Positions 1 to 14,475 of a stretch of DNA of 64,000 nucleotides are shown here, piece by piece (within the stretch, counting starts at the first letter, position 1; every line of letters starts with the position of its first letter). A program made the position numbers and the translations under genes. Location: positions 6,170-70,169 of the forward strand of contig MGFR01000003.1 of assembly GCA_001791995.1 (NCBI GenBank), written 5' to 3'. Source of the stretch: Candidatus Woesebacteria bacterium RBG_13_46_13 (GTDB taxonomy: Bacteria > Patescibacteriota > Microgenomatia > UBA8517). The notes below the pieces were generated by a model. That model had not been told where the DNA came from. It saw nothing but the letters and a program-made list of their open reading frames with translations, and made no database searches.

Positions 1-2
1 AA

Positions 3-137
3 CCAGCCGTTGAGGTGAACCAGGGCACGTTTGCCGCGGTTAATATCCCTTAAATAATACCTGTCGATTTTTCCACCCTTCTGCAGAAACGTGTCTATAA
101 GCTTTGTAAGTGAAGAATCAGTGATCAATATAGCCAT
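3..137 (-). CDS. 5'-partial hypothetical CDS (N-terminal 45 aa; continues beyond window start)
   Basis: Hand translation of the minus strand from ATG at 137 gives MAILITDSSLTKLIDTFLQKGGKIDRYYLRDINRGKRALVHLNGW with no stop before the window edge. A GGGGTGG SD-like motif lies 5-6 nt upstream. Not in the ORF track because it is under 60 aa. Confidence 0.25.
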   Translation of the reverse strand, partial: MAILITDSSLTKLIDTFLQKGGKIDRYYLRDINRGKRALVHLNGW

Positions 138-299
138 TATACCACCCCCAGGTGTCATTATGGGGCCAAAAATGCTATAATACCGCTAGGTTACTAGTCC
201 ATTCCGACAAAGCATACTAAATCGATACTTCCGGTATCCGTTTCCAGGCTTCTTGGTGGAGGAGTTTCCAAAAACAAAAGAAAGGAGGTGACAAAATTA

Positions 300-629
300 A
301 TGGCAAAAAGATTGTTTGTAGGGAGTCTTCCCTACACTACAACTTCTGAAGAGCTGAAGGAACTTTTCGCAAAAATTGGAGAAGTTACTGCGGCTGATGT
401 TATTACCGATAAATTTACCGGTCAAGGTAAAGGTTTTGCTTTTGTGGAGTTTGCAGATGATGCAAATGCCGATAAGGCAATCAAAGAGTTAAACGGTACG
501 GATTATAACGGAAGAAAGCTCGTTGTAAACGAAGCCAGACCTCGCGAAGAGAGATCTTCGGGTGGTGGTGGATACGGCGGCGACAGAGGTGGTGGATTTA
601 GAGGAGGCGGAGGCTCAAGGCGCTATTAA
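300..629 (+). CDS. RRM-type RNA-binding protein with Gly/Arg-rich (RGG-like) C-terminal tail
   Basis: RNP1-like GFAFVEF and RNP2-like LFVGSLPY motifs. C-terminal tail GGGGYGGDRGGGFRGGGGSRRY. Strong SD AAAGGAGGTG 7 nt upstream of ATG 300; the ORF track begins 12 nt earlier at 288. Confidence 0.85.
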   Translation: MAKRLFVGSLPYTTTSEELKELFAKIGEVTAADVITDKFTGQGKGFAFVEFADDANADKAIKELNGTDYNGRKLVVNEARPREERSSGGGGYGGDRGGGFRGGGGSRRY

Positions 630-757
630 GCGCTAATATCCTTTCGTTGTCCTTTGGATTGGCTGTGAGGAGAAACGGTTTTAAATTTAGTGTGAAGAAA
701 ACTCTGTCCAAACTGGATTTTGACACTTCGCTTAAGGTTTATTAGAATACTCCTGAT

Positions 758-1633
758 ATGAGCCCGGAAAGAAAGGTTGAGGTTGTTACCGACAGCGGCT
801 CTTCGATCAGACCCAAAGATACGCTGGCCAGAGAAAGCGGTGTTACCGTTGTTCCTTTGGATCTGAAATTCTTCGAAAACGACCAATATGTCAGCTACTC
901 CGATGCGGATGTGGAAACCGAAGAGTTCTACCGCCGGATGCGGGAAGGCAAAAAACTTCCCCAGACTTCGGGAGCAATTCCCGGAAGAATAGTCGAAACA
1001 TTCAAGCACCTTTCCGAAAAAGCCCAATCTATTGTTTCTATCCATATTACTTCCAAACACTCGGTTGTTTGGGAGTCGGCCGTATTGGGAAAGAAACTCT
1101 TTCAAGACGATACCCAAAAAGATACACCGATTGAGATTGTGGACTCAAAGCAGGTTTCCCTGGCCACCTGGTTTCCGGCGGAAGATGCCGCGCAGCTGGC
1201 CGAAAAAGGAGCGACCCTTGAGCAGATTATGGAAGAGCTCAAGCAAAGGATGCCCAAAATCAGCCTTTATGCGGTTCTGGAAAGCTTTGACAATCTCAAG
1301 CTCGGAGGTCGTGCTGAAGATTTGGTTAAGGGATATCTTGCCTCTCTACTCTCGATTTATCCAGTTCTGACCTTTGTCGAAGGGAAACTTACCCAAGCAG
1401 CCAGAGCCAGAACGGCCCAGAAAGCCAGAGACAAAATGGTTGAAATGGTTGCCGATGCGGGAAAACTCGTTAGACTTGCAGTTTTGCATGCAAACGCCCT
1501 CGAAACCGCCAGAAACGTCAAAGAAGCCTTAAGTAAAGCTTATAAAGGTGACATTCCCATTCACGAAGCCGGTCCGGTCCTTGCCGTCCACGCGGGTGAG
1601 GGCACGGTTGGGGTGGTTCTACAAAGGGCTTAA
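758..1633 (+). CDS. DegV family protein (fatty-acid-binding DegV/EDD fold)
   Basis: N-terminal VEVVTDSGSSI matches the DegV signature (I-x-TDS-x-x-D). 291 aa is typical for the family. Confidence 0.7.
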   Translation: MSPERKVEVVTDSGSSIRPKDTLARESGVTVVPLDLKFFENDQYVSYSDADVETEEFYRRMREGKKLPQTSGAIPGRIVETFKHLSEKAQSIVSIHITSKHSVVWESAVLGKKLFQDDTQKDTPIEIVDSKQVSLATWFPAEDAAQLAEKGATLEQIMEELKQRMPKISLYAVLESFDNLKLGGRAEDLVKGYLASLLSIYPVLTFVEGKLTQAARARTAQKARDKMVEMVADAGKLVRLAVLHANALETARNVKEALSKAYKGDIPIHEAGPVLAVHAGEGTVGVVLQRA

Positions 1634-1689
1634 TCTCTCTTCGGGTTTAAAGATTGACAGGCTAATTTAAAGGTGGTATTTATGTACAC

Positions 1690-2184
1690 ATGTCGGAAAG
1701 AACAACGGTAAATTTCGGTCCTCCCCAAAGCTACGAAGAGGCACTTCTCAGGTTCCCTAGGGGAATGGATTTAACCGTTGCAATGTATGAGTTTAAGCAA
1801 CTATTAACTTCACCTGTCCTGGATCGATTACCGCTTACGCGCAGAATAATGGAAGTATCGGCAGAATCCTTAAAGGCGATGGAAGAGATATCTTTCAGAA
1901 GGAATGTGGATAGCGTTGGGAAAACAAACTGGGATTACTTTTTACCTTACTGCCGGGTAGAACCCTTAAGCTCCGTATTTGAGGCCGATGAGCTATTTAG
2001 AGAACTCAAGATTTGGACGCTTAGGCCAGAGGTAAGGGATGACAAGTTTCTTTTGGTCTGTGTGCTGGCCGACCCGGGCTTTCACTTCGATTCTCCGGAG
2101 TATTATTTGGGAATTCTGAGACACCACGAATACGATTTGCTTATTCCCCCGGTTGTGCCTTCCAGCCTAAGCAGGAATCCATAA
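1690..2184 (+). CDS. hypothetical protein (164 aa), first gene of accessory island
   Basis: Long ORF with no recognisable motifs. Sits between the housekeeping degV and the defence-like genes. Confidence 0.4.
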   Translation: MSERTTVNFGPPQSYEEALLRFPRGMDLTVAMYEFKQLLTSPVLDRLPLTRRIMEVSAESLKAMEEISFRRNVDSVGKTNWDYFLPYCRVEPLSSVFEADELFRELKIWTLRPEVRDDKFLLVCVLADPGFHFDSPEYYLGILRHHEYDLLIPPVVPSSLSRNP

Positions 2185-2251
2185 AAACGGGAGAGTAGTC
2201 TTCAAGGTTCAGATTATTGTGGAGCTATATTACCTTAAGTAGCTGTTTTCT

Positions 2252-2602
2252 TTAATCTCTATCCTTGGCAATAAAGTCGACAAATTTGAATAATATTTCC
2301 AACAAGATGACGGAAAGCCATGCGAGGAAAGAATAATAAGCCAAAGGGTATAAGATAATAGCTGCAAGCGTTCCTTTGGCTACGCTTTTTTCGACCATTT
2401 CCGACGGAATCTCCAGGCAGGCAAGAACAAGATTTATTAAGTTTGATTTCACTTCCTGAAACTTTGCGGGATTTATACCGAAAGGATGACGGTTTACCCG
2501 CTTGGGGGCGTCCCACATAAAAAATATCTTGATCCACTTCCAGATACGCCCCAGATCCTTTTTGAATTCTTTCCTGCTGGCAACTTCAATTTCTAAGCCC
2601 AC
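2252..2602 (-). CDS. hypothetical small membrane protein (116 aa)
   Basis: ORF with a hydrophobic C-terminal half (LAAIILYPLAYYSFLAWLSVILLEILF). Fills the gap between flanking genes. No family recognised. Confidence 0.25.
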   Translation of the reverse strand: MGLEIEVASRKEFKKDLGRIWKWIKIFFMWDAPKRVNRHPFGINPAKFQEVKSNLINLVLACLEIPSEMVEKSVAKGTLAAIILYPLAYYSFLAWLSVILLEILFKFVDFIAKDRD

Positions 2603-2673
2603 TCCGCTATTTTACTCCCGAAATTCTACTTCGGAGAGATTATGGGGTCAAATTTTCAAACGCGTGCCACTCT

Positions 2674-3615
2674 TTATCTGTCAGGCGCTGCTTCATACGA
2701 TTCTTTAATAATCGGCATCATATAATCAATAGTTTTATCTGATTTTACATCTATCCACCAAAGCGGTGTTTTCCCCCATTTATAAGACTCCGGTATTTTG
2801 GTCAACTTATTGGCGGTATCGTGGTTTAATTTTTCCTTCCTCACAGTGACTCTAAGCTTATCTTTATATACATGAATTGAAACAAAGTTATACCAATTTA
2901 TTTTGTACCCAATATAGTTGCCTACCGGTTTTTCAATAATCTGATCATCGATCTGTTTAATCCTATCTCTAATTTCGTCAAGAAGTCGGGTAATCTGCGG
3001 CGAAGCTTTCTTATAGTGATCATCTACAGAGTAAACTTTTATTTCGCTACTGACTTTTCTTATTGCCTTGCTTTTCGTCACTTTGGTAATAGATTCTTCT
3101 GCCTCAGCTGGTTTTATCTGACTAAAGAAAACGGTATCGTTTTCAAAAAGTTCAGCTTCCCATAGCTCAAAGGGTAAATCTTTGAAAGCAACGGCACCCA
3201 ACTGATGGAGCGTAAAGGAAGGGGCGATAAACACAACTCTAGATTGCGTCCAATCAACGTCTGTTCTTTTAATAGATTTCTCTGTCCTTTCGGCGTATTC
3301 GAGAACGAATTCCGCCTTATTATTAAGCATAAGTCCCAAATAGTTGAAGCCTTGATCAATCACGGAAAAGCTTTCGTTTCGTTTGTATTCGATAATCACA
3401 AAGGATTTTGTTTCTGGATCAAATGCTAGTGTGTCAATAATAAAATTTCTTACAATAAACTGTTTGTTTTTCTTACCAGAGACAAACTGAAGTCCAAAAA
3501 CTTCTTCTAGCGATTCTTCCGTAAGAAGTTGTAAATCCTTTTCAAGATTAAAGGATCTTTCTTTAATTCTTGTTAGCTTCGGACCATTGATTTTAAAAAT
3601 CGGCATTTGAGGCAA
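2674..3615 (-). CDS. PD-(D/E)xK nuclease-fold protein (putative restriction-endonuclease-like / defence nuclease)
   Basis: Motif block NFIIDTLAFD ... SFVIIEYKRNE (D ... E-x-K) in the N-terminal half. Distinct beta-rich C-terminal domain. Located in the defence island. Confidence 0.5.
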   Translation of the reverse strand: MPQMPIFKINGPKLTRIKERSFNLEKDLQLLTEESLEEVFGLQFVSGKKNKQFIVRNFIIDTLAFDPETKSFVIIEYKRNESFSVIDQGFNYLGLMLNNKAEFVLEYAERTEKSIKRTDVDWTQSRVVFIAPSFTLHQLGAVAFKDLPFELWEAELFENDTVFFSQIKPAEAEESITKVTKSKAIRKVSSEIKVYSVDDHYKKASPQITRLLDEIRDRIKQIDDQIIEKPVGNYIGYKINWYNFVSIHVYKDKLRVTVRKEKLNHDTANKLTKIPESYKWGKTPLWWIDVKSDKTIDYMMPIIKESYEAAPDR

Positions 3616-3640
3616 TTATACTACTTCAAAAATCAACCAG

Positions 3641-4531
3641 CTAAACGTTCCTTTTGCACTCCATGCATAGACCCTGTGTTAAAGGATTGCTATCATATCC
3701 GTCAGATAGGCTGAGTGGTTTTCCACATCTTTTGCAGGGGTTAACAATATATGCAGACAGGGTTGGTCCAGAGGGCCCAGTTGGGAATGTCCCTGAAGCA
3801 ATACTTAAGTTGCTTAATGATTGCTCTGAAACTTTATTTTGTAATTTAGAGATGTCCGACTCTTTTTTAAGGATTTCTTTCTCAAGATCTTCAATCTCTT
3901 CTGTTTTATCCTTAGCAAGTTGGTCTTTCTGCGTTTTGAGACTTTTCAGTTCTCCATTTAGAGTGTTGATTGAATCTTCTTTAAGTCTCATTTCTTCAAA
4001 ATAATCCACTATTTCTACAGATGCTGGATTAATATCAGCCCAGTCAGTGATAGAATTTAAAATATCCTTGTCAACATTACTTATAAGATTTTGAATTTCA
4101 TCAAGATTCCTGTCATCCTTTTCGTTAAATATTTTTATGCGGTCGGAAATATTTTTAACTTTATATTTAAGCGATTGCAAATATCTTATTGATGTAACGC
4201 TTTTTTTTGAAAGGATTGTGTTCCCTTTGGCTTCAATCAAATTTTGTACTATGACCGCTGTAGTTACTGAAGAAAAGATAATTTCAAAAATTTCAAGAGC
4301 AATACGAGTAGTGCCTTCTAGAGATTGCGCATACAGAAACAGTGCGATTGCAATTAATGCCGGCGCAACTGCACCTGGCGTTAAAACAATCGATAATGCA
4401 AATACCCATTTTTCTTTCAGAGAAGCCAGATATATTTTGATGTTCGCGAGTGAAACATTTATAGTATTGTGTGGTACTTGCCTAGCAAATCTGTTTCCTG
4501 CTTCCATTCTTTTTTTACTATGTTTTTTCAT
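3641..4531 (-). CDS. membrane-anchored coiled-coil protein with C-terminal CxxC...CxxC zinc ribbon
   Basis: Two predicted TM helices after MKKHSKKR. Long charged heptad-like region (KEDSINTLNGELKSLKTQKDQLAKDKTEEIEDLEKEILKKESDISKLQNKV). C-terminal CKRCGKP...CMECK. The ORF track starts 30 nt earlier. Confidence 0.45.
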   Translation of the reverse strand: MKKHSKKRMEAGNRFARQVPHNTINVSLANIKIYLASLKEKWVFALSIVLTPGAVAPALIAIALFLYAQSLEGTTRIALEIFEIIFSSVTTAVIVQNLIEAKGNTILSKKSVTSIRYLQSLKYKVKNISDRIKIFNEKDDRNLDEIQNLISNVDKDILNSITDWADINPASVEIVDYFEEMRLKEDSINTLNGELKSLKTQKDQLAKDKTEEIEDLEKEILKKESDISKLQNKVSEQSLSNLSIASGTFPTGPSGPTLSAYIVNPCKRCGKPLSLSDGYDSNPLTQGLCMECKRNV

Positions 4532-4577
4532 AAAAAACTGCCCTTGCGGGCAGCAACTCAATAATATTCCTAAACGC

Positions 4578-6347
4578 CTATGGGGTCAAATTGGTCCACT
4601 TAGACGATGTTTGAATTATTGTGTTGAACCATTCAGTTTCATTGTCAAAATTATCCGCAATGGAGCTTGCCCATTTAAGAAAACTGTAGATTTGTTCCGC
4701 CTCAACACCGCCTTCATTATAAGCATGGTCTAATATTTTTTTAAACGCATCCAGGTTTAAAGGAATTATCTGTGCCTTACCACCATAATGTACAACATTT
4801 GTTTTTCGAAGCACAAAGAAAAGGGCCACGACTGAAGGATTTATCGAGGGGGCCAAAAATAATCCAAACACTGGCCGTTTATCTGCGTTAGTCCGCAATA
4901 CTTCGACAACATCTCCGAGGTGTCTTGCAACCGGTTCCCCCTCTGAATCATACTGCCTCGCACCAGTCGAAAGAGTAACTTCAACCACAAGGACAAAATT
5001 ATTGTAATAGCAGACCAAATCAGGAAGTTTTGGCGGGGCATTATGTAAAGGTCTACCGTCGTTATCGATAGAAAGATTTCCGATAATATTCCCATCGTCC
5101 AACATATTCAGCGCCCTCCAAGTGTTCCATTCAAAAAAAAGAGGCTTGTCTGGTATATCAATGTCGCCCCGGTCCTGAATTTTATTAAAAACCCCAATTA
5201 TATCCGGATACAACTTATAAGTTTGCAGTGCCTTTACCTCTTCATTGATTAAAGCCGACTGTAAAACCTGCTCAAGTTCTGTTTTCAAACCCCACAGCTC
5301 GTCTATCATTAGAGTGGTTAGCTTCCCCATCGAGTAGGTTTCATCTGGCTTTGGAAGTTTGCCAGATGCTGATCTAATTTTTACAACGAGTGCTATTATT
5401 TCTTCTCTCAATACACCAACATCATCTTCAGGAAGCGACGGCAAATTGGAATTACCGAGAAAGTCCAAAAAGACAGACGGTGATTTTTCATACTCTTCTG
5501 GTTCTCGCGGAAAAGTTTTAAGAATGGTCCTGACAATGCGCGTCTTGGTATCAAGAATTTCCAGCCTATAAGTCCTTCCAGAAATAGTAAAAAGGCCGGT
5601 CGCTCGAAAATATCGAATTGCTGCATCGGCGTAATCAATAGAATTTCTCATTTTTGTTTTAACAAAATCGTCTATGCTTGGTTTTCTGCCTTTCCTTTGC
5701 CTGAGTGTAATAGAGCCTTTGTTAATATCCACTAGATAGAGTGCAACATATTTTGCTAAATGAGTTTTTATAGCTAAGGCTTTCTTATCGCGACTGTTCT
5801 TTATGCTTTCTATGTTCTTTCGGAAATCAAGAATTTCTTTTTTCGTTCCCTCATAGTTTTGGTAATCAATTAGGGTTATCCCAAACATAGCGATTTCCCG
5901 CTTGCTTAGCCCATCAAGATCATAGACCAATCGCAAAATTTCCAAAAATGGCTTAATACGAAAGTCTTTATATCTCTCATCCCAATGTTTTGGTGATGGA
6001 TATTGCCATTTAAGGAGTTGTCGTAGAAATAAATCGTCTAATCGCCTTTTTTCTATTAGCCGCCTTCCTGCTGGAGTTATTTGTATTTTCTTTTCGTCAT
6101 CAAACCTCACGAAACCAAGAGTTTTTGGGCTTCTATTTATTCTGTCTCTAGCAGAAAATGAGGGTTCCTTTTCGTAGATTTTTCCCTCAAAAAAACCACT
6201 TTTCGCTAGCAATCTTGCGTATTGCTCTTGAATTTTGGAATCCCATTTCTTTCCTTCAAACCGGGCTAGCAGAGCTAGCTCATCACTTAGTTTATAAGGG
6301 TTTCTAGGCGAAGTTGACACCGACCACGTGTGTTTAGTTTCCGACAT
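4578..6347 (-). CDS. putative type II restriction endonuclease (589 aa), cognate of upstream methyltransferase
   Basis: Lies 8 bp downstream of the DNA methyltransferase on the same strand, the classic M-R arrangement. Its size and a C-terminal PD...E-V-T-like block (PDLVCYYNNFVLVVEVTLS) are compatible with a large type II REase such as the AlwI-like family. The family assignment is not verified. Confidence 0.45.
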   Translation of the reverse strand: MSETKHTWSVSTSPRNPYKLSDELALLARFEGKKWDSKIQEQYARLLAKSGFFEGKIYEKEPSFSARDRINRSPKTLGFVRFDDEKKIQITPAGRRLIEKRRLDDLFLRQLLKWQYPSPKHWDERYKDFRIKPFLEILRLVYDLDGLSKREIAMFGITLIDYQNYEGTKKEILDFRKNIESIKNSRDKKALAIKTHLAKYVALYLVDINKGSITLRQRKGRKPSIDDFVKTKMRNSIDYADAAIRYFRATGLFTISGRTYRLEILDTKTRIVRTILKTFPREPEEYEKSPSVFLDFLGNSNLPSLPEDDVGVLREEIIALVVKIRSASGKLPKPDETYSMGKLTTLMIDELWGLKTELEQVLQSALINEEVKALQTYKLYPDIIGVFNKIQDRGDIDIPDKPLFFEWNTWRALNMLDDGNIIGNLSIDNDGRPLHNAPPKLPDLVCYYNNFVLVVEVTLSTGARQYDSEGEPVARHLGDVVEVLRTNADKRPVFGLFLAPSINPSVVALFFVLRKTNVVHYGGKAQIIPLNLDAFKKILDHAYNEGGVEAEQIYSFLKWASSIADNFDNETEWFNTIIQTSSKWTNLTP

Positions 6348-6355
6348 TAAAAAAT

Positions 6356-7141
6356 TTAGAGCAACTTATTTTGTAAACTTTTTTTTAAATCTTCAGGCAA
6401 TGCGCTACGCTTTTGGTAAATGTCGATTCCTGTTTTAAGAAAGCAATCAGCCCTTTTTTTGGCTATTCGGCAGGCCTTTAGGGAAATGTCTGCACCAATG
6501 AAATCGCAACTCGCTTTCAGTGCGCCTATACTGGAGCTTCCACTACCAACAAACGGGTCACACACCAGAAACCCCGGGGAGGAGCTAGCTTTCAACATCA
6601 TATCAAAAAGCTCTACGGGTTTCTGCGTAGGGTAGATACCCCTAGGTATTCTTTTAATTCTCCAAACATCAGGAATACTTTTAGAGTTCAGTTTTCTATA
6701 TCCCTTAGTTGCAAAAAGAATGAACTCATGTCTTCGTCTAAAATAATGGCCCATTCCGAAATTAACCTTATCCCAAACTAGAAGGTTTTTAACGTCAAAA
6801 ACATCTCTAACTATGTGACCTAGCGAAAGGAGAGAAAAGCTGTCAAACATAATATATAAGTGTCTATTGTTTTTTAATACTCTATGACACAGTTTAAGAA
6901 AGTATAAAAAAGTTTCAGGCTCATCCTTAAATTCAGGAAACCATTTTTCATTTCCCCCCTTTTTATACTCACCAACAATCCTGCCATTACCAAAATTCAT
7001 TTTATTGTTCATTCCAGAATATGCTGGATCAGTCACAATAATATCTACGCTTTCTTCGGGAAGAGATTTTAAAAATTCGAGGCAATCTTTTTGCAAAATC
7101 TCAAATCTTGAGGCTTTTGTAACTTTTTTGGTCGGTCTCAT
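6356..7141 (-). CDS. DNA methyltransferase, beta-class (probable N6-adenine or N4-cytosine)
   Basis: Motif IV IIVTDPAYSG (DPPY-like) is N-terminal to motif I CDPFVGSGSS (FxGxG SAM-binding). This order is the hallmark of beta-class amino-MTases. Confidence 0.8.
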   Translation of the reverse strand: MRPTKKVTKASRFEILQKDCLEFLKSLPEESVDIIVTDPAYSGMNNKMNFGNGRIVGEYKKGGNEKWFPEFKDEPETFLYFLKLCHRVLKNNRHLYIMFDSFSLLSLGHIVRDVFDVKNLLVWDKVNFGMGHYFRRRHEFILFATKGYRKLNSKSIPDVWRIKRIPRGIYPTQKPVELFDMMLKASSSPGFLVCDPFVGSGSSSIGALKASCDFIGADISLKACRIAKKRADCFLKTGIDIYQKRSALPEDLKKSLQNKLL

Positions 7142-7239
7142 TATTTTCCCTCGCCCATTTTACTACTTTTTAGGTCTAGGAACTAAGGGTCGGATTTGTC
7201 TAACTCGCCTTCAATACCCACAATGGGGGCTATCTTACT

Positions 7240-9054
7240 CTATCCCGCCCCTCCGCCGCCACCTCCGCCTCCCCCACCCCCTCCTCCGGAGAATGCTCCG
7301 GAGGAGCCCACTCCGTGGGCGCCGTATCCGGAGAAAGACGACGAAAGCGAAGAGAAGCTATTGCCGAAATCCGCAAAGGTGGTCCCCACTAACGGATAAA
7401 GGTTTGAGTTTTTGGCGATGTTGTAATCGACAGGCAGTTCGCTTAAGGCTTTTTGGGATATCCCCAAGGCGGTTCCGTAGACAAGGTATTTTTCCCAGAG
7501 GATTACGGAATCGATGGGATAGTTTTTGGTAACTCTATAATCTTTGAGAAATTGTTTGAAGGCCAGCCATGAAGCCAGTTCAAGGTTTCCGATAGGAGTT
7601 CTTTTCATCATAAAAATTGCAAAGATGATAAGAATAATTATTCCGGCGATTGAAAGCATTCCTGCCGTGACCAGAAGGAGAGCGGTAGAGCTTGCAATGA
7701 GAAAAGGCATTGCTACAAAGTAGATGAATATTAGTATTCCGAAAAGTACGATATCGGCAATGATACTGCCGGACATTTCTTTACTTTTCTCTTCGAATAT
7801 TCCGGTATCCAGAAGACTATCGTGAACCTTTTCTTTCCAATCGGACCAAAACTCCGTTGTGGCCGAGGGTTTAGTTTTCGGAAAGGATTTAATCTCCGAG
7901 AAACTTATCTTCTTCTCCACTCCGGAAAAGATGAAATCGACAAGTTTTTTCTCCAGAGCGGTAAGTTTTACCTTTGATTCAGATTTTAAGATTAGGGTGT
8001 ATTCCGGGCCGACGCTGAAAAGCCCCATTACGAGTTTTTTGGGCTTTTCTATTTGGATTTCCAGAACCTTCTTCCTTATAAGATTAACGATAGTTGCCAC
8101 AATGCTTTTGCCGGTCGGGCCGTAGCCCGGCTGGCGGGTTAAAGCCTCAACCAGGGCCGGTTCCAGATCGCTCGGGGGCTCATGCAGTTTCCCGGAAAGG
8201 TTAACCTCGGGTAAGGGAGCGTCCTTCCCGTATTTAAGGAAGCGCTCGGTCCAGACTATTAGTCTATATAGAAGAAAAAGACAAATAGAGGCAAGAATAA
8301 CGTTCAGGGTTAAGGACGAAACGGCATTTTTGGTTTGGAAGCCTTTTTCTTCTTTGAGTATTTCCTCTTTTGAGGAAGTTCCCTTTTGGGCAAAGGCTGC
8401 ATTTTCCAGTTTGGGGAAAAGTATTCTTGCCTCAACGAATTTATTGGCCGGCAGGCCCATTGCCGAATAGGTAACCTTATCTCCCGCCACAATTGCCACC
8501 TTGCCGTTTAAGGGTCCGTGACCGAATGCGTAGAGGGAGTCGGAAGGATAGCTCTCCGGTAAGGTAATGGTTGCGGAAACATTGGAGACTCCCTTGGCCC
8601 AGGCGTCTCCTATAAGTTGCCAGTAAAATTCCGAAGTATCGACCTGGAGGATAACCGCGTTTTTGATTCTGTAGGACAGGCTAAAGGTTTTGGGTTCACT
8701 CTGGGCTTGATAGAACCATTTGATATAGAGCTTTTCCGGAGTTGGTCCCAGCTGATAGGTTCCCGGCTCCTCTTCTTCGGAAAGAAGATAATCCTTTCCG
8801 CCTTCCTTTATGGAAACGTCCTCGATTATGGAGTTTTTGCAGCCGTCGCATTTGGCCTTAAGGTTAATCCATTCATCCGCCCAGGAGAACGAGCCGTCAA
8901 AATCGTAGGTCCGGGTTTCGGCGACACTTGCACTGCCGTCGGAGTTGATATCAACAGAAATTGTGGCCTGGGTGATGGAATAGTCTTTGGCGAGGGCTGT
9001 TTTTGGGAAAAGAAGTAAAAGGAAGAAGAGGAGAACTAAAATCGCTTTCTTCAT
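7240..9054 (-). CDS. DUF2207-family membrane protein with poly-Gly C-terminal tail
   Basis: Signal peptide MKKAILVLLFFLLLLFPKTALA, a large extracytoplasmic domain and multiple TM helices. C-terminus is a Gly-rich SGAFSGGGGGGGGGGGGGAG tail. This architecture is typical of DUF2207. The ORF track gives an alternative upstream start at 9108. Confidence 0.65.
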   Translation of the reverse strand: MKKAILVLLFFLLLLFPKTALAKDYSITQATISVDINSDGSASVAETRTYDFDGSFSWADEWINLKAKCDGCKNSIIEDVSIKEGGKDYLLSEEEEPGTYQLGPTPEKLYIKWFYQAQSEPKTFSLSYRIKNAVILQVDTSEFYWQLIGDAWAKGVSNVSATITLPESYPSDSLYAFGHGPLNGKVAIVAGDKVTYSAMGLPANKFVEARILFPKLENAAFAQKGTSSKEEILKEEKGFQTKNAVSSLTLNVILASICLFLLYRLIVWTERFLKYGKDAPLPEVNLSGKLHEPPSDLEPALVEALTRQPGYGPTGKSIVATIVNLIRKKVLEIQIEKPKKLVMGLFSVGPEYTLILKSESKVKLTALEKKLVDFIFSGVEKKISFSEIKSFPKTKPSATTEFWSDWKEKVHDSLLDTGIFEEKSKEMSGSIIADIVLFGILIFIYFVAMPFLIASSTALLLVTAGMLSIAGIIILIIFAIFMMKRTPIGNLELASWLAFKQFLKDYRVTKNYPIDSVILWEKYLVYGTALGISQKALSELPVDYNIAKNSNLYPLVGTTFADFGNSFSSLSSSFSGYGAHGVGSSGAFSGGGGGGGGGGGGGAG

Positions 9055-9055
9055 C

Positions 9056-9268
9056 TTACTTTTCCGTTGGCCCTTCGGGGGCATCCGGGGCGGGCATTCC
9101 TTCGACAACCGTCTTGGTCACGACAGATTGGCTGGAATTACTGGGAACGGGCTCCACGGTAACCCCTCTTTCCTTAAAGGCCCTATCCGCTTTGAATACG
9201 TTTACCCCGGAGCTATTAACCCTTCTGGGTCTTCTTACCCAGTCTACTCTCTTTTCTTCCTCGGACAT
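9056..9268 (-). CDS. hypothetical small protein (70 aa)
   Basis: ORF ends 1 nt before the DUF2207 start. Acidic/Pro-rich, no known motif. Confidence 0.2.
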   Translation of the reverse strand: MSEEEKRVDWVRRPRRVNSSGVNVFKADRAFKERGVTVEPVPSNSSQSVVTKTVVEGMPAPDAPEGPTEK

Positions 9269-9299
9269 ATCTATATCCTAATTAAAAAAGCTTCCGTTA

Positions 9300-9599
9300 T
9301 CAAATCTTCCTTTTGGGATAGCCGGGACAAGAGGCGGGAGTTCCAAGTGGAGTATTTTCATAAAGAGAGACGGGGGTATAACCCTTGCTGCAGCCAAGAG
9401 CTACGACTTCTTTACCGTCTTTGCGTCCGAATCTAAGCTCCAGATTTTCGCATTTGCCGCATAAGCCCTCCAGGGCCCTAAGCCTGTTGGCGTTATCCTG
9501 GGCGGCATCGCCGTGTATACGGTGATGCGGTTTGGAATAACGCGTTTGCAGGTGCCGGACGACTTCCTTTGCGGCGGCAATTCGTTTCTCTGATTCCAT
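9300..9599 (-). CDS. hypothetical protein (99 aa) with Cys-rich segment
   Basis: ORF containing CGKCENLE...GCSKGY...CPGYP. No family recognised. Confidence 0.3.
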   Translation of the reverse strand: MESEKRIAAAKEVVRHLQTRYSKPHHRIHGDAAQDNANRLRALEGLCGKCENLELRFGRKDGKEVVALGCSKGYTPVSLYENTPLGTPASCPGYPKRKI

Positions 9600-9613
9600 T
9601 ATAGGGTATTATA

Positions 9614-9787
9614 TCACGGTTTCTTGCGGGGTTCCTTTTTCTGGGGTCTGGGCATGTCGCGGCGGATATGCCATTGAAGCTCTTCCGGCAGGGCCAGAGG
9701 CCTGGGCCGTGCCACCTCGTGGCTCCCGTTTCCGTTCCCGTTGCCGTTTGTCCTGTTTTTCTTAGCAAAAGATGCTTCAGGAGTCAT
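9614..9787 (-). CDS. hypothetical small ORF (57 aa) with NGNGNGNG repeat
   Basis: Hand translation gives MTPEASFAKKNRTNGNGNGNGSHEVARPRPLALPEELQWHIRRDMPRPQKKEPRKKP. It differs from the ORF-track frame 9493..9768. Stop lies 15 nt before the next gene. Confidence 0.15.
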   Translation of the reverse strand: MTPEASFAKKNRTNGNGNGNGSHEVARPRPLALPEELQWHIRRDMPRPQKKEPRKKP

Positions 9788-9928
9788 AGAAGTAACTAAT
9801 AACAGATAACGCCGAGCTTATTCAAGGGGAAATTTTTTGTAAATTGCCCCAGTTAGTATTAGAATAAGGCCAAGCACGTTGACTTTAACCCTCTTGTCAA
9901 ATGCGACAAGAATCATCAAGGAGGTAGC

Positions 9929-10153
9929 ATGGCAGACATGGATGTAGGAATAGAATCCTCCAGGGTCGAACCGTACTATCTTGCACAGACCGCTTTGGCG
10001 GAAACGTCGGTCAGGTGCAACAGATGCGTGTACGACGGAACCAAGTTCTGCCGGATTGCCTCGGAAGAGGAGATGCGTCACGCCGTCAAACGGCTGGTTC
10101 GCTACCGTATTCCCGTACCTCCCTGCCTCAAATGGGTTGAAGGCGAAATGTGA
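9929..10153 (+). CDS. hypothetical small Cys-containing protein (74 aa)
   Basis: Near-perfect SD AAGGAGGT 6 nt upstream of ATG 9929. Contains CNRC...C...C. Convergent with the hppA 3' end. Confidence 0.35.
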   Translation: MADMDVGIESSRVEPYYLAQTALAETSVRCNRCVYDGTKFCRIASEEEMRHAVKRLVRYRIPVPPCLKWVEGEM

Positions 10154-10216
10154 AGAAAGAGTTTTAAGAGAGCCGGTTTTGGCTTCTTACCCAAGAAGAC
10201 TACCGGCTTTCTCTCT

Positions 10217-12451
10217 TTAAGAAGCTACCTCTACTGCCTTACTCTGCTTTATTGCCCAGACGAAGATGACAAGAAGAACCGCGATGGCTATCTTGGCTCC
10301 GATTGATGCCTCGTAAGCCACAATTACGGGCGCGGCGATTAAGGAAACCAGGGTAACAACTTTAATCATTGGGTTTAAGGCCGGCCCAGCGGTATCTTTT
10401 AAGGGGTCCCCCACCGTATCACCCTCAATCGAAGCGTTATGCGCATCCGAACCTTTACCTCCCAAATGTCCGTCCTCGATGTACTTCTTGGCGTTATCCA
10501 TGGCCCCACCAGCTACGGCCATAAAGACGGCCATCAGTTGCCCCGTCAGGATAACCCCGGCCAGAAAAGCTCCCAAGGCTTCGACTTTAAAGATTAGCCC
10601 GACGATTAAAGGCAGGGTTACCGCTATCGCTACCAAGCTGATCAGGTCTTTTTGGGCTGCGGCGGTGGTGATACTTACCACTTTCTCGTATTCGGGCGTG
10701 ACCGTTCCTTCCATAACTCCGGGAACTTTAAACTGGCGTCTGACTTCCTCAACTACCTTGGCGGCACCTTTGGCCACCGCTTTGATGGAGATGGAGGAGA
10801 AAAGGAAAGGAAGAGAACCTCCTACCAGAAAGCCGATTACGGTATCGATGGTTGAGACCCGGATATCCTTAAGAACGGCCAGACCGAGCCTTGCCTGGAC
10901 AATGCCGACATCGGTCACAAAAGAGAAGAAAAGGGCCGTTGCGGCAATAACTGCGGAGGCAATTGCCAGCTGTTTGGTTATTGCCTTGGTGGTGTTTCCC
11001 ACCGAATCCAACTCGGCCATAATTTTCCAGGCCTTCTTGTCCACCCCGCTCATCTCCCCGATACCGTTGGCATTATCCGCAATCGGGCCGAATGTATCCA
11101 TCGCAACATTATTTCCCGTTAAGGACAACATGCCTATACCGATCATGGCCACGCCGTAAAGCATATAGATGGGAGGCATGCCCAGATAAACCAGGTAGCT
11201 TGAAGCCAGAGCCAAGGCGACGACGATGACGCTGGCAACCGAGGATTCCATACCGACCGCGAGGCCGGAAAGGATAGTTGTGGCCGGACCGGACTTGGTT
11301 GCCTCGACAATTTCCTTGACCGGGCGCTTTTTGTACGAGGTAAAGTAGCTGGTCAAGGGGTTAAAGACCACGGCCAGAAGAATTCCGATGGTATTTAAAA
11401 GGGCCAGTTTCCATTCCCCGGCGTAGTAGAAGGCGAAAGCAAAAGCCAGGACAATGGTGGTGATACTGGAAAGCTCGTAGGAGCGGAACATTGCCTCTTC
11501 CGCGTCTTTGGCCCTAACTAGCTTCAGAGGGAAGTTTTCCCAGATAGGCACAGCCAGGGTCCCGAGAATCGAGGAAAGTACCCCAATGGCCCTGACCACC
11601 AAAGGATAGACGATCCAGAAGGTGTTGCCGGTCAGGTGGAAAAGAACCAACCCCAAAATTAAGGCCGAGACAATGGTTACCTCGTAGGATTCGAAGATAT
11701 CCGCCGCCATTCCGGCACAATCCCCAACATTATCCCCGACCAAGTCGGCTATAACACCCGCGTTTCTCGGGTCATCCTCGGGAAGGCCTTTTTCGACTTT
11801 GCCCACCAAATCTGCCCCGACATCTGCGGCTTTGGTATATATTCCCCCACCGATTCTCATAAAAAGGGCAACCAGAGTGCCTCCGAAACCGAAACCCAAA
11901 AGCGCATCCGGTGCGGCTTTACCGAAGACCATGAATATTACCGTGCCGCCCAAAAGACCCAGCCCGTCGGTCAGCATTCCGGTAAAGGTTCCGGCCCGAT
12001 AGGCAACCGTTAATGCGCCGTTATGATCACCCGCAACGGCTTTGGCGGTGACCCGGACATTGCCTTCGATTGCCACGCGCATACCAAGCTGTCCCACCAA
12101 GGTTGAGAATGTAGCTCCGACGATAAAGGCGATGGTCCGGCCGATGGCAACAATCAGCGTGGCGTTGGAGCCGAATCTGGCGATTGCTTCGGAAGAGGGA
12201 GGAACGATATAAACCGAGAGAAAAAGAACTACGGTTAAAGGGACAAGAAACAAGAGGATTGTCTTAAGTTGTTTTTTGAGATATCCCTGGGCGCCTTTCT
12301 TGATGGCGTTCCACACCGCTTGGGCTTTTTCGCTGCCTTTATCCTGGGCAATGGTTTGGCGCCAAATCCAGAAAGCATAGACAAGGGCAGTTGCTGCAAC
12401 TCCGACAACACTCCAGAGGAAAATTTGTTCCAGATAGCTTAAGTCGCTCAT
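10217..12451 (-). CDS. hppA: membrane-bound proton/sodium-translocating pyrophosphatase
   Basis: Hallmark motifs GDNVGDCAGMAAD, DNAKKYIEDG and EGDTVGDPLKDTAGPALN. 744 aa, polytopic. Confidence 0.9.
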   Translation of the reverse strand: MSDLSYLEQIFLWSVVGVAATALVYAFWIWRQTIAQDKGSEKAQAVWNAIKKGAQGYLKKQLKTILLFLVPLTVVLFLSVYIVPPSSEAIARFGSNATLIVAIGRTIAFIVGATFSTLVGQLGMRVAIEGNVRVTAKAVAGDHNGALTVAYRAGTFTGMLTDGLGLLGGTVIFMVFGKAAPDALLGFGFGGTLVALFMRIGGGIYTKAADVGADLVGKVEKGLPEDDPRNAGVIADLVGDNVGDCAGMAADIFESYEVTIVSALILGLVLFHLTGNTFWIVYPLVVRAIGVLSSILGTLAVPIWENFPLKLVRAKDAEEAMFRSYELSSITTIVLAFAFAFYYAGEWKLALLNTIGILLAVVFNPLTSYFTSYKKRPVKEIVEATKSGPATTILSGLAVGMESSVASVIVVALALASSYLVYLGMPPIYMLYGVAMIGIGMLSLTGNNVAMDTFGPIADNANGIGEMSGVDKKAWKIMAELDSVGNTTKAITKQLAIASAVIAATALFFSFVTDVGIVQARLGLAVLKDIRVSTIDTVIGFLVGGSLPFLFSSISIKAVAKGAAKVVEEVRRQFKVPGVMEGTVTPEYEKVVSITTAAAQKDLISLVAIAVTLPLIVGLIFKVEALGAFLAGVILTGQLMAVFMAVAGGAMDNAKKYIEDGHLGGKGSDAHNASIEGDTVGDPLKDTAGPALNPMIKVVTLVSLIAAPVIVAYEASIGAKIAIAVLLVIFVWAIKQSKAVEVAS

Positions 12452-12495
12452 GCAAAAATTTTATGAAAAGCGGTCAGGCTTTTCAATAGCCTGTT

Positions 12496-14475
<1,980 letters not shown>

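What the first reader, a model, noticed from the sequence alone, without database searches (positions are those of the whole stretch)
2674..4561. Candidate two-gene defence module next to an R-M pair: PD-(D/E)xK-motif protein plus membrane/coiled-coil/zinc-ribbon protein
Two same-strand, closely spaced genes (26-bp gap) lie directly next to a methyltransferase-endonuclease pair. The 313-aa protein has an explicit D...E-x-K block (NFIIDTLAFD...VIIEYKRNE) followed by an unrelated beta-rich C-terminal domain. The 306-aa partner has two TM helices, a long charged coiled coil and a C-terminal CxxC...CxxC ribbon. Several described abortive-infection and anti-phage modules share this effector-nuclease plus membrane or sensor pairing. 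I cannot assign either protein to a named system from memory.
Basis: partly seen in the sequence, partly recalled or inferred. Interest (0 to 1): 0.7.

Follow-up and report, generated by a model that had tools for sequence, protein, structure and literature searches.

The report
Stand-alone defence-candidate nuclease, not a pair
The two genes are real but do not form a conserved pair: one is a self-contained, catalogued but untested anti-phage nuclease candidate (PADLOC PDC-S18) that habitually sits in or beside restriction-modification systems, and the other is an unrelated membrane protein of an undescribed family.

Summary
Both ORFs exist on the minus strand next to a methyltransferase/endonuclease pair, inside a 4.6-kb low-GC island. 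The start codons need correcting, to 310 aa (ATG 3606) and 296 aa (ATG 4531).

The 310-aa protein matches PADLOC's single-gene candidate PDC-S18 over its full length (1e-95). It has an N-terminal NucS/RecB-like PD-(D/E)xK nuclease with invariant D58, D63, E73, K75 and QxxxY, plus a C-terminal DUF5655 domain with a YdhG/YjbR/T4 MotA-CTD-like fold. Its nuclease domain weakly matches PDC-S11 models. PDC-S11 is 'Madara', shown in a 2026 preprint to be a modification-dependent restriction protein.

None of 102 other loci carrying this gene encodes the membrane protein, and none of the informative membrane-protein loci carries the nuclease. Relatives of the R-M pair have neither gene. The recurrent neighbours of the nuclease are R-M genes, typically in the order hsdS-X-hsdR. 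The gene brings its own -10 box 8 nt before the ATG, which suggests a leaderless transcript.

The two-gene module is therefore not supported. The most likely function is a stand-alone, type IV-like restriction nuclease that backs up R-M systems. The membrane/coiled-coil/zinc-ribbon protein belongs to an unnamed family of about 460 clusters. In three of eight informative contexts that family lies beside DNA methyltransferases.

The parts
2674..3606 (-). PDC-S18-family gene, 310 aa: a stand-alone candidate defence nuclease.
   Evidence: PADLOC PDLC04945 at 1.1e-95 over the full length, and PDLC04946 at 3e-49. 4,428 homologues of about 310 aa. AlphaFold model with pLDDT 88.9 and pTM 0.84.
3097..3606 (-). 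N-terminal NucS/RecB-like PD-(D/E)xK nuclease domain (aa 1 to about 170). Invariant residues are D58, D63, E73-Y-K75 and Q85xxxY89.
2692..3027 (-). C-terminal DUF5655 domain with a YdhG/YjbR/T4 MotA-CTD-like alpha+beta fold. Proposed nucleic-acid-binding or sensing domain.
3615..3620 (-). TATAAT -10-like box, 8 nt upstream of ATG 3606. Probable own promoter giving a leaderless or near-leaderless mRNA.
   Evidence: Identical box and spacing in L007 and L008, although their upstream contexts differ. 18 of 79 homologue loci have a box matching at least 5 of 6 positions and ending 6-9 nt before the ATG, and only 14 of 79 have an SD-like motif. Promoter function is inferred.
3641..4531 (-). 296-aa membrane / helical / zinc-ribbon protein ('TMCC'), a member of an undescribed family. 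It is not a conserved partner of the nuclease.
   Evidence: 7 close homologues. A profile search of 1.84 billion representatives gave 457 clusters with E<=1e-3, all about 260-310 aa. No Pfam, NCBIfam or PADLOC family, only coiled-coil noise. Conserved motifs are KKGxSAIRNL and EEIxNLxxxLEKDIxNSIxxWxDIxPE.
4235..4408 (-). Hydrophobic segments of TMCC (aa 42-72 and 77-99): putative transmembrane helices.
   Evidence: Kyte-Doolittle 19-residue windows above 1.6. Hydrophobic character is conserved across the family. No dedicated TM predictor was available.
3656..3736 (-). C-terminal CxxC...CxxC zinc ribbon of TMCC (C266, C269, C289, C292).
   Evidence: All four cysteines are invariant in 36 family members. 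Best PDB profile match is CT398 (coiled coil plus Zn ribbon, 3.8e-5).
4537..4554 (-). GC-rich hairpin followed by a T-run, between the endonuclease stop and the TMCC ATG. Terminator-like.
Evidence: Consensus scan.
4578..6347 (-). Type IIS AlwI-family endonuclease, a full-length homologue of N.BspD6I.
   Evidence: Pfam RE_AlwI at 6.5e-59. PDB 5liz N.BspD6I at 2.4e-65 over residues 5-539. PADLOC REase_II at 1e-69.
6356..7141 (-). Beta-class N6/N4 DNA methyltransferase paired with the endonuclease.
   Evidence: Pfam N6_N4_Mtase at 8e-27 and PADLOC MTase_II at 2.5e-96. The same MTase-REase order occurs in 10 related metagenome loci, none of which has the two downstream genes.
2641..2654 (+). Copy 1 of an exact 14-nt direct repeat (TATGGGGTCAAATT), 20 nt beyond the nuclease stop codon.
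   Evidence: Its meaning is unresolved.
4579..4592 (+). Copy 2 of the same 14-nt repeat. It overlaps the last codons and the stop of the endonuclease gene.
   Evidence: The two copies bracket exactly the TMCC + PDC-S18 segment (spacing 1,938 nt).

Best explanation
The 4.6-kb low-GC island holds three independent units, not an R-M pair plus a two-gene module. The units are:
1. A self-contained type IIS R-M pair, an N.BspD6I-like endonuclease with a beta-class methyltransferase.
2. A gene for a membrane/coiled-coil/zinc-ribbon protein of an unnamed family.
3. A stand-alone PDC-S18 gene.

The PDC-S18 gene is a roughly 960-bp cassette with its own -10 box and probably a leaderless mRNA. It has spread across bacterial phyla and archaea, and it repeatedly lodges inside or beside R-M and BREX loci.

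Its product most likely works alone as a type IV-like restriction nuclease. In this model the C-terminal DUF5655 domain binds DNA and recognises a feature of invading DNA, plausibly a base modification that lets phages escape the neighbouring R-M system. The N-terminal NucS-like PD-(D/E)xK domain, probably as a dimer, then cuts.

Shown here: family identity, fold, intact catalytic residues, lack of a conserved partner, and association with R-M. Inferred: nuclease activity, DNA binding by DUF5655, modification dependence, the defence phenotype and the leaderless transcript.
For: Identity: PADLOC PDC-S18 at 1.1e-95 over the full length. The hsdS-X-hsdR gene on Acinetobacter plasmids is the same family (9e-140).

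Active site: D58, D63, E73, K75, Q85 and Y89 are invariant.

No partner:
- TMCC is absent from 102 other PDC-S18 loci.
- No recurrent neighbour family other than R-M and recombinase genes.
- Immediate neighbours are dominated by ResIII, SWI2_SNF2, HSDR_N, N6_Mtase, REase_I and MTase_I/II/III.
- 12 of 18 IMG/VR loci show hsdM/hsdS upstream and/or hsdR downstream.
- A strain-specific DUF5655 gene lies beside BREX pglX in M. smithii U29 (PMC12487256).

R-M pair is independent: 35 relatives of the endonuclease, 10 of them with the same methyltransferase, carry neither downstream gene.

Autonomy: the conserved TATAAT box lies 8 nt before the ATG in different contexts, and DNA homology is limited to about 20 nt upstream plus the ORF.

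Mechanistic analogy: the nuclease domain matches PDC-S11 models collinearly from residue 1 (1.7e-4 here, down to 1.2e-7 in homologues). PDC-S11 is 'Madara', a BREX-adjacent single protein with an N-terminal NucS-like nuclease, a linker and a C-terminal reader-like domain. It restricts glucosyl-hmC T4 but not unmodified T4, and a D63A mutation abolishes the effect (bioRxiv 10.64898/2026.09.05.749240). Type IV systems embedded in type I R-M loci are an established pattern, for example TgvAB (PMC11411939).
Against: - No member of PDC-S18 has been tested. The PDC set is explicitly 'untested', and I found no paper naming PDC-S18.
- The link to Madara rests on weak HMM scores over about 80-100 residues, and the C-terminal domains differ (DUF5655 here, EVE-like in Madara).
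- Foldseek found no significant full-length PDB match.
- The 14-nt direct repeat bracketing both genes could mean they arrived together in this lineage.
- Only about 30% of the loci sampled had a recognisable R-M neighbour within four ORFs (23 of 79). That figure came from within-set clustering only and is probably an undercount.
Confidence: 0.55

Rival explanations
1. One reading: the nuclease and the membrane/coiled-coil/zinc-ribbon protein form one two-gene abortive-infection or defence module, a sensor or anchor plus an effector.
For: They are adjacent on the same strand with a 25-34 nt gap. An exact 14-nt direct repeat brackets exactly these two genes. Both lie in one low-GC island.
Against: There is no co-occurrence in 102 other PDC-S18 loci or in the informative TMCC-family contexts. 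The family sizes are very different. The closest PDC-S18 relatives (86-87% identity) stand alone or directly follow a different endonuclease. PDC-S18 has its own conserved -10 box, and homology stops about 20 nt upstream of the ATG. PADLOC models the family as a single gene.
Confidence: 0.05
2. PDC-S18 is a guard or backup of the neighbouring R-M complex in the manner of PrrC. In this model it is a latent nuclease held inactive by the R-M enzyme and released when a phage anti-restriction protein disables that enzyme.
For: The hsdS-X-hsdR position is the position that prrC occupies in the EcoprrI locus (from my own knowledge). Spacing to R-M genes is tight, at 9-28 nt. Neighbours are rich in type I R subunits.
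Against: The gene occurs next to unrelated R-M types: type I, type IIS AlwI-like in two very different versions (25% identity in the catalytic domain only), BREX, or none at all. A specific physical partnership is therefore unlikely. Its own promoter also suggests independent expression.
Confidence: 0.15
3. PDC-S18 is a selfish, free-standing homing-type nuclease gene that inserts itself between genes, often R-M genes, and confers no defence benefit.
For: It is a minimal cassette of promoter plus ORF with sharp homology boundaries. It is inserted tightly between genes in unrelated contexts. Its distribution across bacteria and archaea is patchy. Serine recombinases and transposases are frequent nearby.
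Against: The enrichment is specific to R-M and BREX loci rather than to one conserved target gene. There is no recurrent target sequence, and the 14-nt repeat is absent from the other 88 loci checked. Its nuclease domain is related to that of an experimentally protective protein, Madara.
Confidence: 0.1
4. PDC-S18 supplies the second catalytic subunit of a heterodimeric type IIS endonuclease, like the small subunit of R.BspD6I, which is encoded downstream of the nickase gene.
Confidence: 0.03
5. The 310-aa protein is a housekeeping NucS/RecB-type repair nuclease.
Against: The domain order and partner domain differ from NucS, and there is no NucS N-terminal domain. The gene lies in a low-GC island. 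Its distribution is sporadic, with 45-59% identity between CPR bacteria, Bacteroidota, Proteobacteria and archaea. It is also found on plasmids and in IMG/VR contigs.
Confidence: 0.03

Closest known systems
PADLOC PDC-S18 (single-gene 'phage defence candidate'; Payne et al., bioRxiv 10.1101/2024.01.29.577857)
   Same: Full-length profile match (1.1e-95), the same length, the same two-domain architecture, and the same habit of sitting in or next to R-M loci.
   Different: Nothing structural differs; this is a member of the family. Here it sits at the 3' end of a type IIS R-M island in a CPR bacterium (Ca. Woesebacteria), not between hsdS and hsdR. The family has no experimental validation.
Madara (PDC-S11), a BREX-adjacent modification-dependent restriction protein of E. 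coli ECOR34 (bioRxiv 10.64898/2026.09.05.749240)
   Same: A single protein with an N-terminal NucS-like PD-(D/E)xK nuclease, a linker and a C-terminal putative reader domain. The nuclease domain is weakly but collinearly homologous (PDC-S11 HMMs from residue 1, 1.7e-4 down to 1.2e-7). A catalytic Asp numbered 63 is essential in Madara and invariant here; exact equivalence of the two residues was not tested. Both lie next to a methylation-based defence system.
   Different: The C-terminal domain is different: DUF5655 (YdhG/YjbR/MotA-CTD-like) here, 'EVE-like' in Madara. The whole proteins fall in different PADLOC families. Modification dependence has not been shown for PDC-S18.
NucS/EndoMS (archaeal and actinobacterial mismatch endonuclease)
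   Different: In NucS the nuclease is C-terminal, behind a dedicated N-terminal DNA-binding/dimerisation domain, and the gene is vertically inherited. Here the nuclease is N-terminal, fused to DUF5655, and lives on islands, plasmids and prophage-like contigs.
Shedu SduA and Hachiman HamA (defence PD-(D/E)xK effectors)
   Different: No family-level sequence match: SduA_C reached only 0.014 in one homologue, and there were no PADLOC Shedu or Hachiman hits. The accessory domains differ, and HamA needs the HamB helicase.
R.BspD6I / N.BstNBI / MlyI / PleI group of AlwI-family type IIS enzymes (for the neighbouring R-M pair)
   Same: The endonuclease aligns end to end with N.BspD6I (2.4e-65). A single beta-class N6/N4 methyltransferase lies upstream.
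   Different: No small-subunit gene is present. The recognition site, and whether the enzyme nicks or cuts both strands, are unknown.
CT398/HP0958-type coiled-coil plus zinc-ribbon proteins (for the 296-aa protein)
   Same: A long helical region followed by a C4 zinc ribbon. Best PDB profile hit, 3.8e-5.
   Different: Those proteins are soluble and lack both the N-terminal hydrophobic segments and the conserved KKGxSAIRNL / DILNSIxDWxDIxP block. The score is probably driven by the coiled coil.

Membership tests
PADLOC PDC-S18 | Full-length match to the family profile HMMs (PDLC04945 / PDLC04946). | tested here: met
   1.1e-95 (residues 4-307 against profile positions 1-301 of 302) and 3.1e-49.
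PADLOC PDC-S18 | Single-gene system with no obligate conserved partner. | tested here: met
   No recurrent neighbour family except R-M and recombinase genes in 79 loci. TMCC is absent from 102 loci.
PADLOC PDC-S18 | Embedded in or adjacent to known defence systems (the 'guilt by embedding' criterion). | tested here: met
   In the window it lies two genes from a type IIS R-M pair. Homologues lie between hsdS and hsdR and next to BREX. 23 of 79 loci have an R-M-type neighbour within four ORFs.
PADLOC PDC-S18 | Anti-phage activity. | not testable with these tools
   The PDC set is described as untested. No paper mentions PDC-S18.
PD-(D/E)xK nuclease superfamily (RecB/NucS-like branch) | Alpha-beta-beta-beta-alpha-beta core fold. 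| tested here: met
PD-(D/E)xK nuclease superfamily (RecB/NucS-like branch) | Catalytic D...(D/E)xK plus the QxxxY motif. | tested here: met
   D63, E73, K75, Q85 and Y89 are invariant in 37 sequences.
PD-(D/E)xK nuclease superfamily (RecB/NucS-like branch) | Metal-dependent nuclease activity. | not testable with these tools
   Needs biochemistry.
Madara / PDC-S11 | Match to the PDC-S11 profiles over the whole protein. | tested here: not met
   Only the first 80-100 residues or so match, and weakly (1.7e-4 here, best 1.2e-7 in a homologue). No match appears when the full protein is scanned at E<=0.1.
Madara / PDC-S11 | C-terminal EVE-like reader domain. | tested here: not met
   The C-domain is DUF5655 with YdhG/YjbR/MotA-CTD-like fold matches. 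No EVE, PUA or ASCH hits appeared.
Madara / PDC-S11 | Restriction that depends on phage DNA modification. | not testable with these tools
   Reported for Madara. Unknown for PDC-S18.
NucS/EndoMS | N-terminal NucS DNA-binding domain followed by a C-terminal nuclease, matching above the Pfam threshold. | tested here: not met
   No NucS_N match. NucS_C matches only below threshold in some homologues (1.4e-3, 19 bits against a cutoff of 24). The domain order is reversed.
Shedu (SduA) | DUF4263/SduA_C family match. | tested here: not met
   0.014 in one of ten homologues, and none for the window protein. No PADLOC Shedu hit.
   0 of 102 PDC-S18 loci have TMCC. None of the informative contexts of nine distinct TMCC-family proteins has PDC-S18/DUF5655.
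Heterodimeric R.BspD6I-type endonuclease (small subunit) | A protein of about 186 aa, paralogous to the catalytic domain of the large subunit and encoded directly downstream. | tested here: not met
   No second catalytic-domain hit downstream in the window or in 35 related loci. The gene directly downstream is TMCC, which has no nuclease motif.
AlwI-family type IIS R-M (neighbouring pair) | RE_AlwI endonuclease with an adjacent DNA methyltransferase. | tested here: met
   RE_AlwI at 6.5e-59, N6_N4_Mtase at 8.3e-27, and the pair is conserved in 10 related loci.

The most novel reading that the evidence does not exclude
The 296-aa membrane / helical / zinc-ribbon protein belongs to an undescribed family of about 460 clusters at 50% identity, with no Pfam, NCBIfam or PADLOC model. 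It may be a new accessory or stand-alone component of DNA-methylation-based defence. In one locus (L150) it is translationally coupled between a 647-aa N6/N4 methyltransferase and a ResIII helicase plus a TnsA-like nuclease. In another (L146/L147) it lies directly before a methyltransferase-SNase fusion. In the window it directly follows an R-M pair. On this reading, the 14-nt direct repeats would mark the insertion of a 1.9-kb segment that added two further layers of immunity to the R-M island.
Probability: 0.2. Interest if true: 0.6.

Novelty: new member of a known kind. Interest (0 to 1): 0.33.

Why it matters
If the proposed function is right, PDC-S18 would be a second family of NucS-like, single-chain type IV restriction enzymes, with a new kind of DNA-reading domain (DUF5655). 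It is very widespread: more than 4,400 sequence clusters, spanning CPR bacteria, Bacteroidota, Proteobacteria, archaea and Acinetobacter plasmids. It would help explain why such genes nest inside R-M and BREX loci, namely to cover modified phages that escape methylation-based systems.

The apparent leaderless promoter-plus-ORF cassette suggests how one defence gene can stay functional when it moves between phyla and even domains.

For this particular finding the practical message is more modest. The nuclease is already catalogued, and the proposed two-gene system is not real. The one unnamed element, the membrane/zinc-ribbon family, deserves its own co-occurrence survey.

Tried and rejected
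- **Pfam, NCBIfam and PHROGs on both proteins.** These gave only DUF5655 for the nuclease and coiled-coil noise for TMCC.
- **PDB sequence searches with the nuclease.** A single sequence and a 37-sequence profile both found nothing.
- **Foldseek against PDB.** No significant full-length match, only domain-level hits. The afdb50 library was not available.
- **TMCC structure prediction.** Low confidence (pLDDT 60, pTM 0.23), so I did not fold-search it.
- **TMCC in other collections.** No relatives in IMG/VR (the broad alignment was too divergent for the tool) or in PLSDB plasmids with four different family members.
- **'Empty-site' test for the 14-nt repeat.** Not possible. The closest relatives of the endonuclease are at most 52% identical, and other assemblies of the same species carry the same island.
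- **An apparent 241-aa truncated allele (P0004).** This is a scaffold-gap artefact.
- **Small-subunit hypothesis for PDC-S18.** Rejected.
- **Literature.** There are no hits for 'PDC-S18' and none in the supplements held for the PADLOC-embedding preprint. 'DUF5655' appears in one genome note only.
- **tRNA genes or integrase at the island borders.** No tRNA genes in 1-14,000. I did not search specifically for an integrase.
Full report
**1. What is there**

Four minus-strand genes fill a low-GC island. It runs from about 2.5 to 7.1 kb at 34-41% G+C, against 42-54% in the flanks. The genes are:
- an N6/N4 DNA methyltransferase, 6356-7141
- an AlwI-family endonuclease, 4578-6347

The window is 99.98% identical to NCBI contig DATEXV010000004.1. 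It is the same species as Ca. Woesebacteria RBG_19FT_COMBO_47_8.

The TTG at 3615 overlaps a conserved TATAAT box. Every homologue, the PADLOC profile and the public annotation start at ATG 3606, giving 310 aa. The TTG at 4561 would place a GC-rich hairpin plus T-run (4537-4554) inside the ORF. Homologues and the public annotation support ATG 4531, giving 296 aa. Residue numbers below use these corrected starts.

**2. The nuclease gene**

The protein matches PADLOC's single-gene 'phage defence candidate' PDC-S18 over its whole length (1.1e-95, with a second model at 3e-49). Its C-terminal 110 residues are Pfam DUF5655 (6e-12).

PDC systems are 145 untested candidates. They were found because they sit embedded in BREX, DISARM or type I R-M loci (bioRxiv 10.1101/2024.01.29.577857). 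I found no paper that mentions PDC-S18 itself.

The family is large, with 4,428 database clusters at E<=1e-3, nearly all about 310 aa. It is also taxonomically scattered. At least 557 species-representative genomes carry it, including CPR phyla, Bacteroidota, Proteobacteria, Spirochaetes, Methanobacteria, Thermoplasmata and Woesearchaeota. Identity to this CPR protein is 41-59%. It also occurs on Acinetobacter and Staphylococcus plasmids and on 18 IMG/VR contigs.

In a 37-sequence alignment D58, D63, E73, Y74, K75, S81, D84, Q85, G86 and Y89 are invariant. These residues form the RecB/Cas4-type motifs D, ExK and QxxxY.

- **C-terminal domain.** It resembles a YdhG-like protein (9.9), DR2400/DUF419 (8.4), YjbR (8.4) and the DNA-binding 'double-wing' C-terminal domain of T4 MotA (7.7).

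Foldseek agrees at the domain level but finds no full-length PDB match. Pfam sees the nuclease domain only below threshold (NucS_C, YhcG_C, HSDR_N_2, SduA_C).

**3. Is it a two-gene module? No.**

The 296-aa protein ('TMCC') had only seven close homologues in 5.8 billion clusters.

- **TMCC contexts.** The contexts of four close homologues contain no DUF5655 gene. The same holds for five more distant family members, although two of those contigs are too short to show neighbours.
- **PDC-S18 contexts.** tblastn found no TMCC in 82 loci carrying PDC-S18 homologues. An HMM of the wider TMCC family, run over all 153 sequences held (1.65 Mb), hit only the loci I had fetched for TMCC itself. That set includes 18 viral-contig loci and 2 plasmid loci with PDC-S18.
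- **Closest relatives.** The two closest PDC-S18 relatives are decisive. In L008 (86% identity) the gene follows, by 25 nt, a very different AlwI-family endonuclease (25% identity, catalytic domain only). In L007 (87%) it lies next to a methyltransferase fragment. Neither locus has TMCC.
- **R-M relatives.** 35 metagenomic relatives of the window's endonuclease, ten of them with the same upstream methyltransferase, have neither downstream gene.

The island is therefore three independent units.

**4. What PDC-S18 travels with**

I clustered the four ORFs on each side in 79 loci. The only recurrent neighbours were type I R subunits (15 loci), HsdM/HsdS or type IIG methyltransferases (15), serine recombinases (7), N6/N4 methyltransferases (5) and reverse transcriptases (4). 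Within four ORFs, 23 of 79 loci had an R-M-type neighbour.

Pfam and PADLOC scans of the 144 immediate neighbours gave the same picture. The hits were ResIII, SWI2_SNF2, HSDR_N, N6_Mtase, REase_I, MTase_I/II/III, type IV REase, PbeA and BrxL.

On Acinetobacter plasmids the order is hsdS - PDC-S18 (9e-140) - hsdR, with 9-nt and 28-nt gaps. Of the 18 IMG/VR loci, 12 show hsdM/hsdS upstream and/or hsdR downstream. In M. smithii U29 a strain-specific DUF5655 gene sits beside BREX pglX (PMC12487256).

**5. A self-contained cassette**

DNA similarity between the window and L007 or L008 (85% and 80%) begins about 20 nt upstream of the ATG. It ends at the stop codon in L008 and 5 nt before it in L007.

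Those 20 nt hold an invariant AGTAGTATAAT, with TATAAT ending 8 nt before the ATG and no Shine-Dalgarno motif. The same arrangement recurs in more distant homologues in unrelated contexts. In 18 of 79 loci a box matching at least 5 of 6 positions ends 6-9 nt before the ATG, and only 14 of 79 have an SD-like motif.

I infer an own promoter giving a leaderless or near-leaderless mRNA. That would suit a gene which moves between phyla and domains. This is inference from sequence and has not been shown.

**6. How it most likely works**

When only the nuclease domain is scanned, it matches the PDC-S11 profiles collinearly from residue 1. The score is 1.7e-4 for the window protein and reaches 1.2e-7, 2.4e-7 and 4.2e-7 against three PDC-S11 models for one homologue.

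PDC-S11 was named Madara in a September 2026 preprint. It is a single BREX-adjacent protein with an N-terminal NucS-like PD-(D/E)xK nuclease, a linker and a C-terminal EVE-like domain. It restricts T4 with glucosyl-hmC but not unmodified T4, and D63A abolishes the effect (bioRxiv 10.64898/2026.09.05.749240). Type IV systems nested in type I R-M loci are an established theme, for example TgvAB (PMC11411939).

PDC-S18 has the same layout with a different C-terminal domain. My best explanation is therefore a stand-alone, type IV-like restriction nuclease. DUF5655 would recognise a feature of foreign DNA, possibly a modification that defeats the neighbouring R-M, and the NucS-like domain would cut.

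Family identity, fold, active-site conservation, autonomy and R-M association are shown. Activity, substrate and phenotype are inferred.

Rivals, with my estimates of probability:
- a PrrC-like guard of R-M complexes (0.15)
- a selfish homing-type nuclease (0.10)
- a small subunit for the N.BspD6I-like enzyme (0.03)
- a housekeeping NucS-type repair nuclease (0.03)

**7. The other gene (TMCC)**

It is a real, conserved gene. A profile search of 1.84 billion cluster representatives found 457 clusters at E<=1e-3 (229 at <=1e-10). All are about 260-310 aa and match nearly end to end.

Family-wide features (hydropathy):
- two hydrophobic segments
- a KKGxSAIRNL motif
- an EEIxNLxxxLEKDIxNSIxxWxDIxPE block
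- a charged helix
- an invariant CxxC...CxxC

No Pfam, NCBIfam, PHROG or PADLOC family covers it. The LmuB/JetC hits, and a 24.8-bit EAD9 hit in one member, lie in the coiled coil. The best PDB profile hit is CT398, a coiled-coil plus Zn-ribbon protein (3.8e-5).

Contexts are varied:
- **L150:** N6/N4 methyltransferase (647 aa), TMCC overlapping it by 4 nt, then a ResIII helicase (682 aa) and a TnsA-like nuclease domain. This looks like a type III-like operon.
- **L146/L147:** TMCC followed 58 nt later by a methyltransferase-SNase fusion (PADLOC MTase_II 8.5e-190).
- **Others:** mobile-element or transposase surroundings, or a GIY-YIG/Ymh neighbourhood.

Three of eight informative contexts therefore have an adjacent DNA methyltransferase. 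That is a lead, not a result.

**8. Unexplained**

An exact 14-nt direct repeat (TATGGGGTCAAATT, at 2641-2654 and 4579-4592) brackets exactly the TMCC + PDC-S18 segment. One copy is the end of the endonuclease gene. Each copy supplies a TTGACC -35-like hexamer.

The window holds 25 exact direct repeats of at least 14 nt, seven of them spaced under 5 kb apart. Block shuffles give 8.3 and 1.3. The repeat is therefore suggestive of an insertion or recombination scar, but it is not proof.

**9. Verdict**

The nuclease is a bona fide member of an already catalogued, untested single-gene defence candidate family. The 'module' is an accident of adjacency within a small defence island.

Interest is modest. 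The more novel threads are DUF5655 as a possible new DNA-reader domain, the leaderless cassette, and the unnamed TMCC family.

Noticed in passing
window 3607-3620 (- strand); also L007-L014, L056 and others: A conserved TATAAT box ends 8 nt before the ATG of the PDC-S18 gene, with no Shine-Dalgarno motif. The same spacing recurs in many homologues in unrelated contexts, which suggests a portable leaderless promoter-plus-ORF cassette of about 960 bp.
   Followed up: partly
window 2641-2654 and 4579-4592: An exact 14-nt direct repeat brackets precisely the two genes of the finding. One copy is the 3' end of the endonuclease ORF, and both copies contain a TTGACC -35-like hexamer. It could be an insertion scar, microhomology recombination or chance; this is unresolved.
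   Followed up: partly
L150 1590-6821; L146 6001-8160; L147 889-3048: Distant members of the TMCC family lie inside or beside methyltransferase operons. L150 has N6/N4 MTase - TMCC (4-nt overlap) - ResIII helicase - TnsA-like nuclease domain. L146/L147 have TMCC followed by an MTase-SNase fusion.
   Followed up: partly
window 4578-6347: The endonuclease is an end-to-end homologue of the nickase N.BspD6I, the large subunit of a heterodimeric enzyme. No small-subunit paralogue is present here or in 35 related loci. GAGTC is mildly under-represented in the window (observed/expected 0.76, rank 35 of 1,024 pentamers).
   Followed up: partly
L008 282-5516: The closest context of the nuclease elsewhere is a RadC-D12 methyltransferase fusion, a second D12 methyltransferase and a 523-aa AlwI-family endonuclease, followed 25 nt later by an 86%-identical PDC-S18 gene. 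This is a second, unrelated AlwI-type R-M carrying the same passenger gene.
   Followed up: partly
L020, L027, L028, L035 (about 9-13 kb in each locus): Four PDC-S18 loci carry a reverse-transcriptase gene (RVT_1) close by, and three of these (L020, L027, L035) also carry a large serine recombinase. I did not determine whether this is a group II intron, a retron/DRT or a mobile element.
   Followed up: no
window about 3375-3512; L125, L126, L127: Three other assemblies of the same species end or have an N-gap inside the 5' part of the PDC-S18 gene. The database '241-aa' protein P0004 is an artefact of such a gap. This might reflect low coverage or strain heterogeneity at this spot.
   Followed up: partly
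window 7240-9108 (- strand) and 7196-7399 (+ strand): The 622-aa membrane protein that borders the island ends in a run of 13 glycines (…GGGGGGGGGGGGGAG), which reads as poly-proline on the opposite strand. It may be a low-complexity tail or a slippage-prone tract.
   Followed up: no
window 2252-2602 (- strand): A 116-aa ORF with a hydrophobic C-terminal half lies directly downstream of the nuclease gene. It has no family match and was found only in assemblies of this species. It is preceded by the promoter-like site that contains one copy of the 14-nt repeat.
   Followed up: partly
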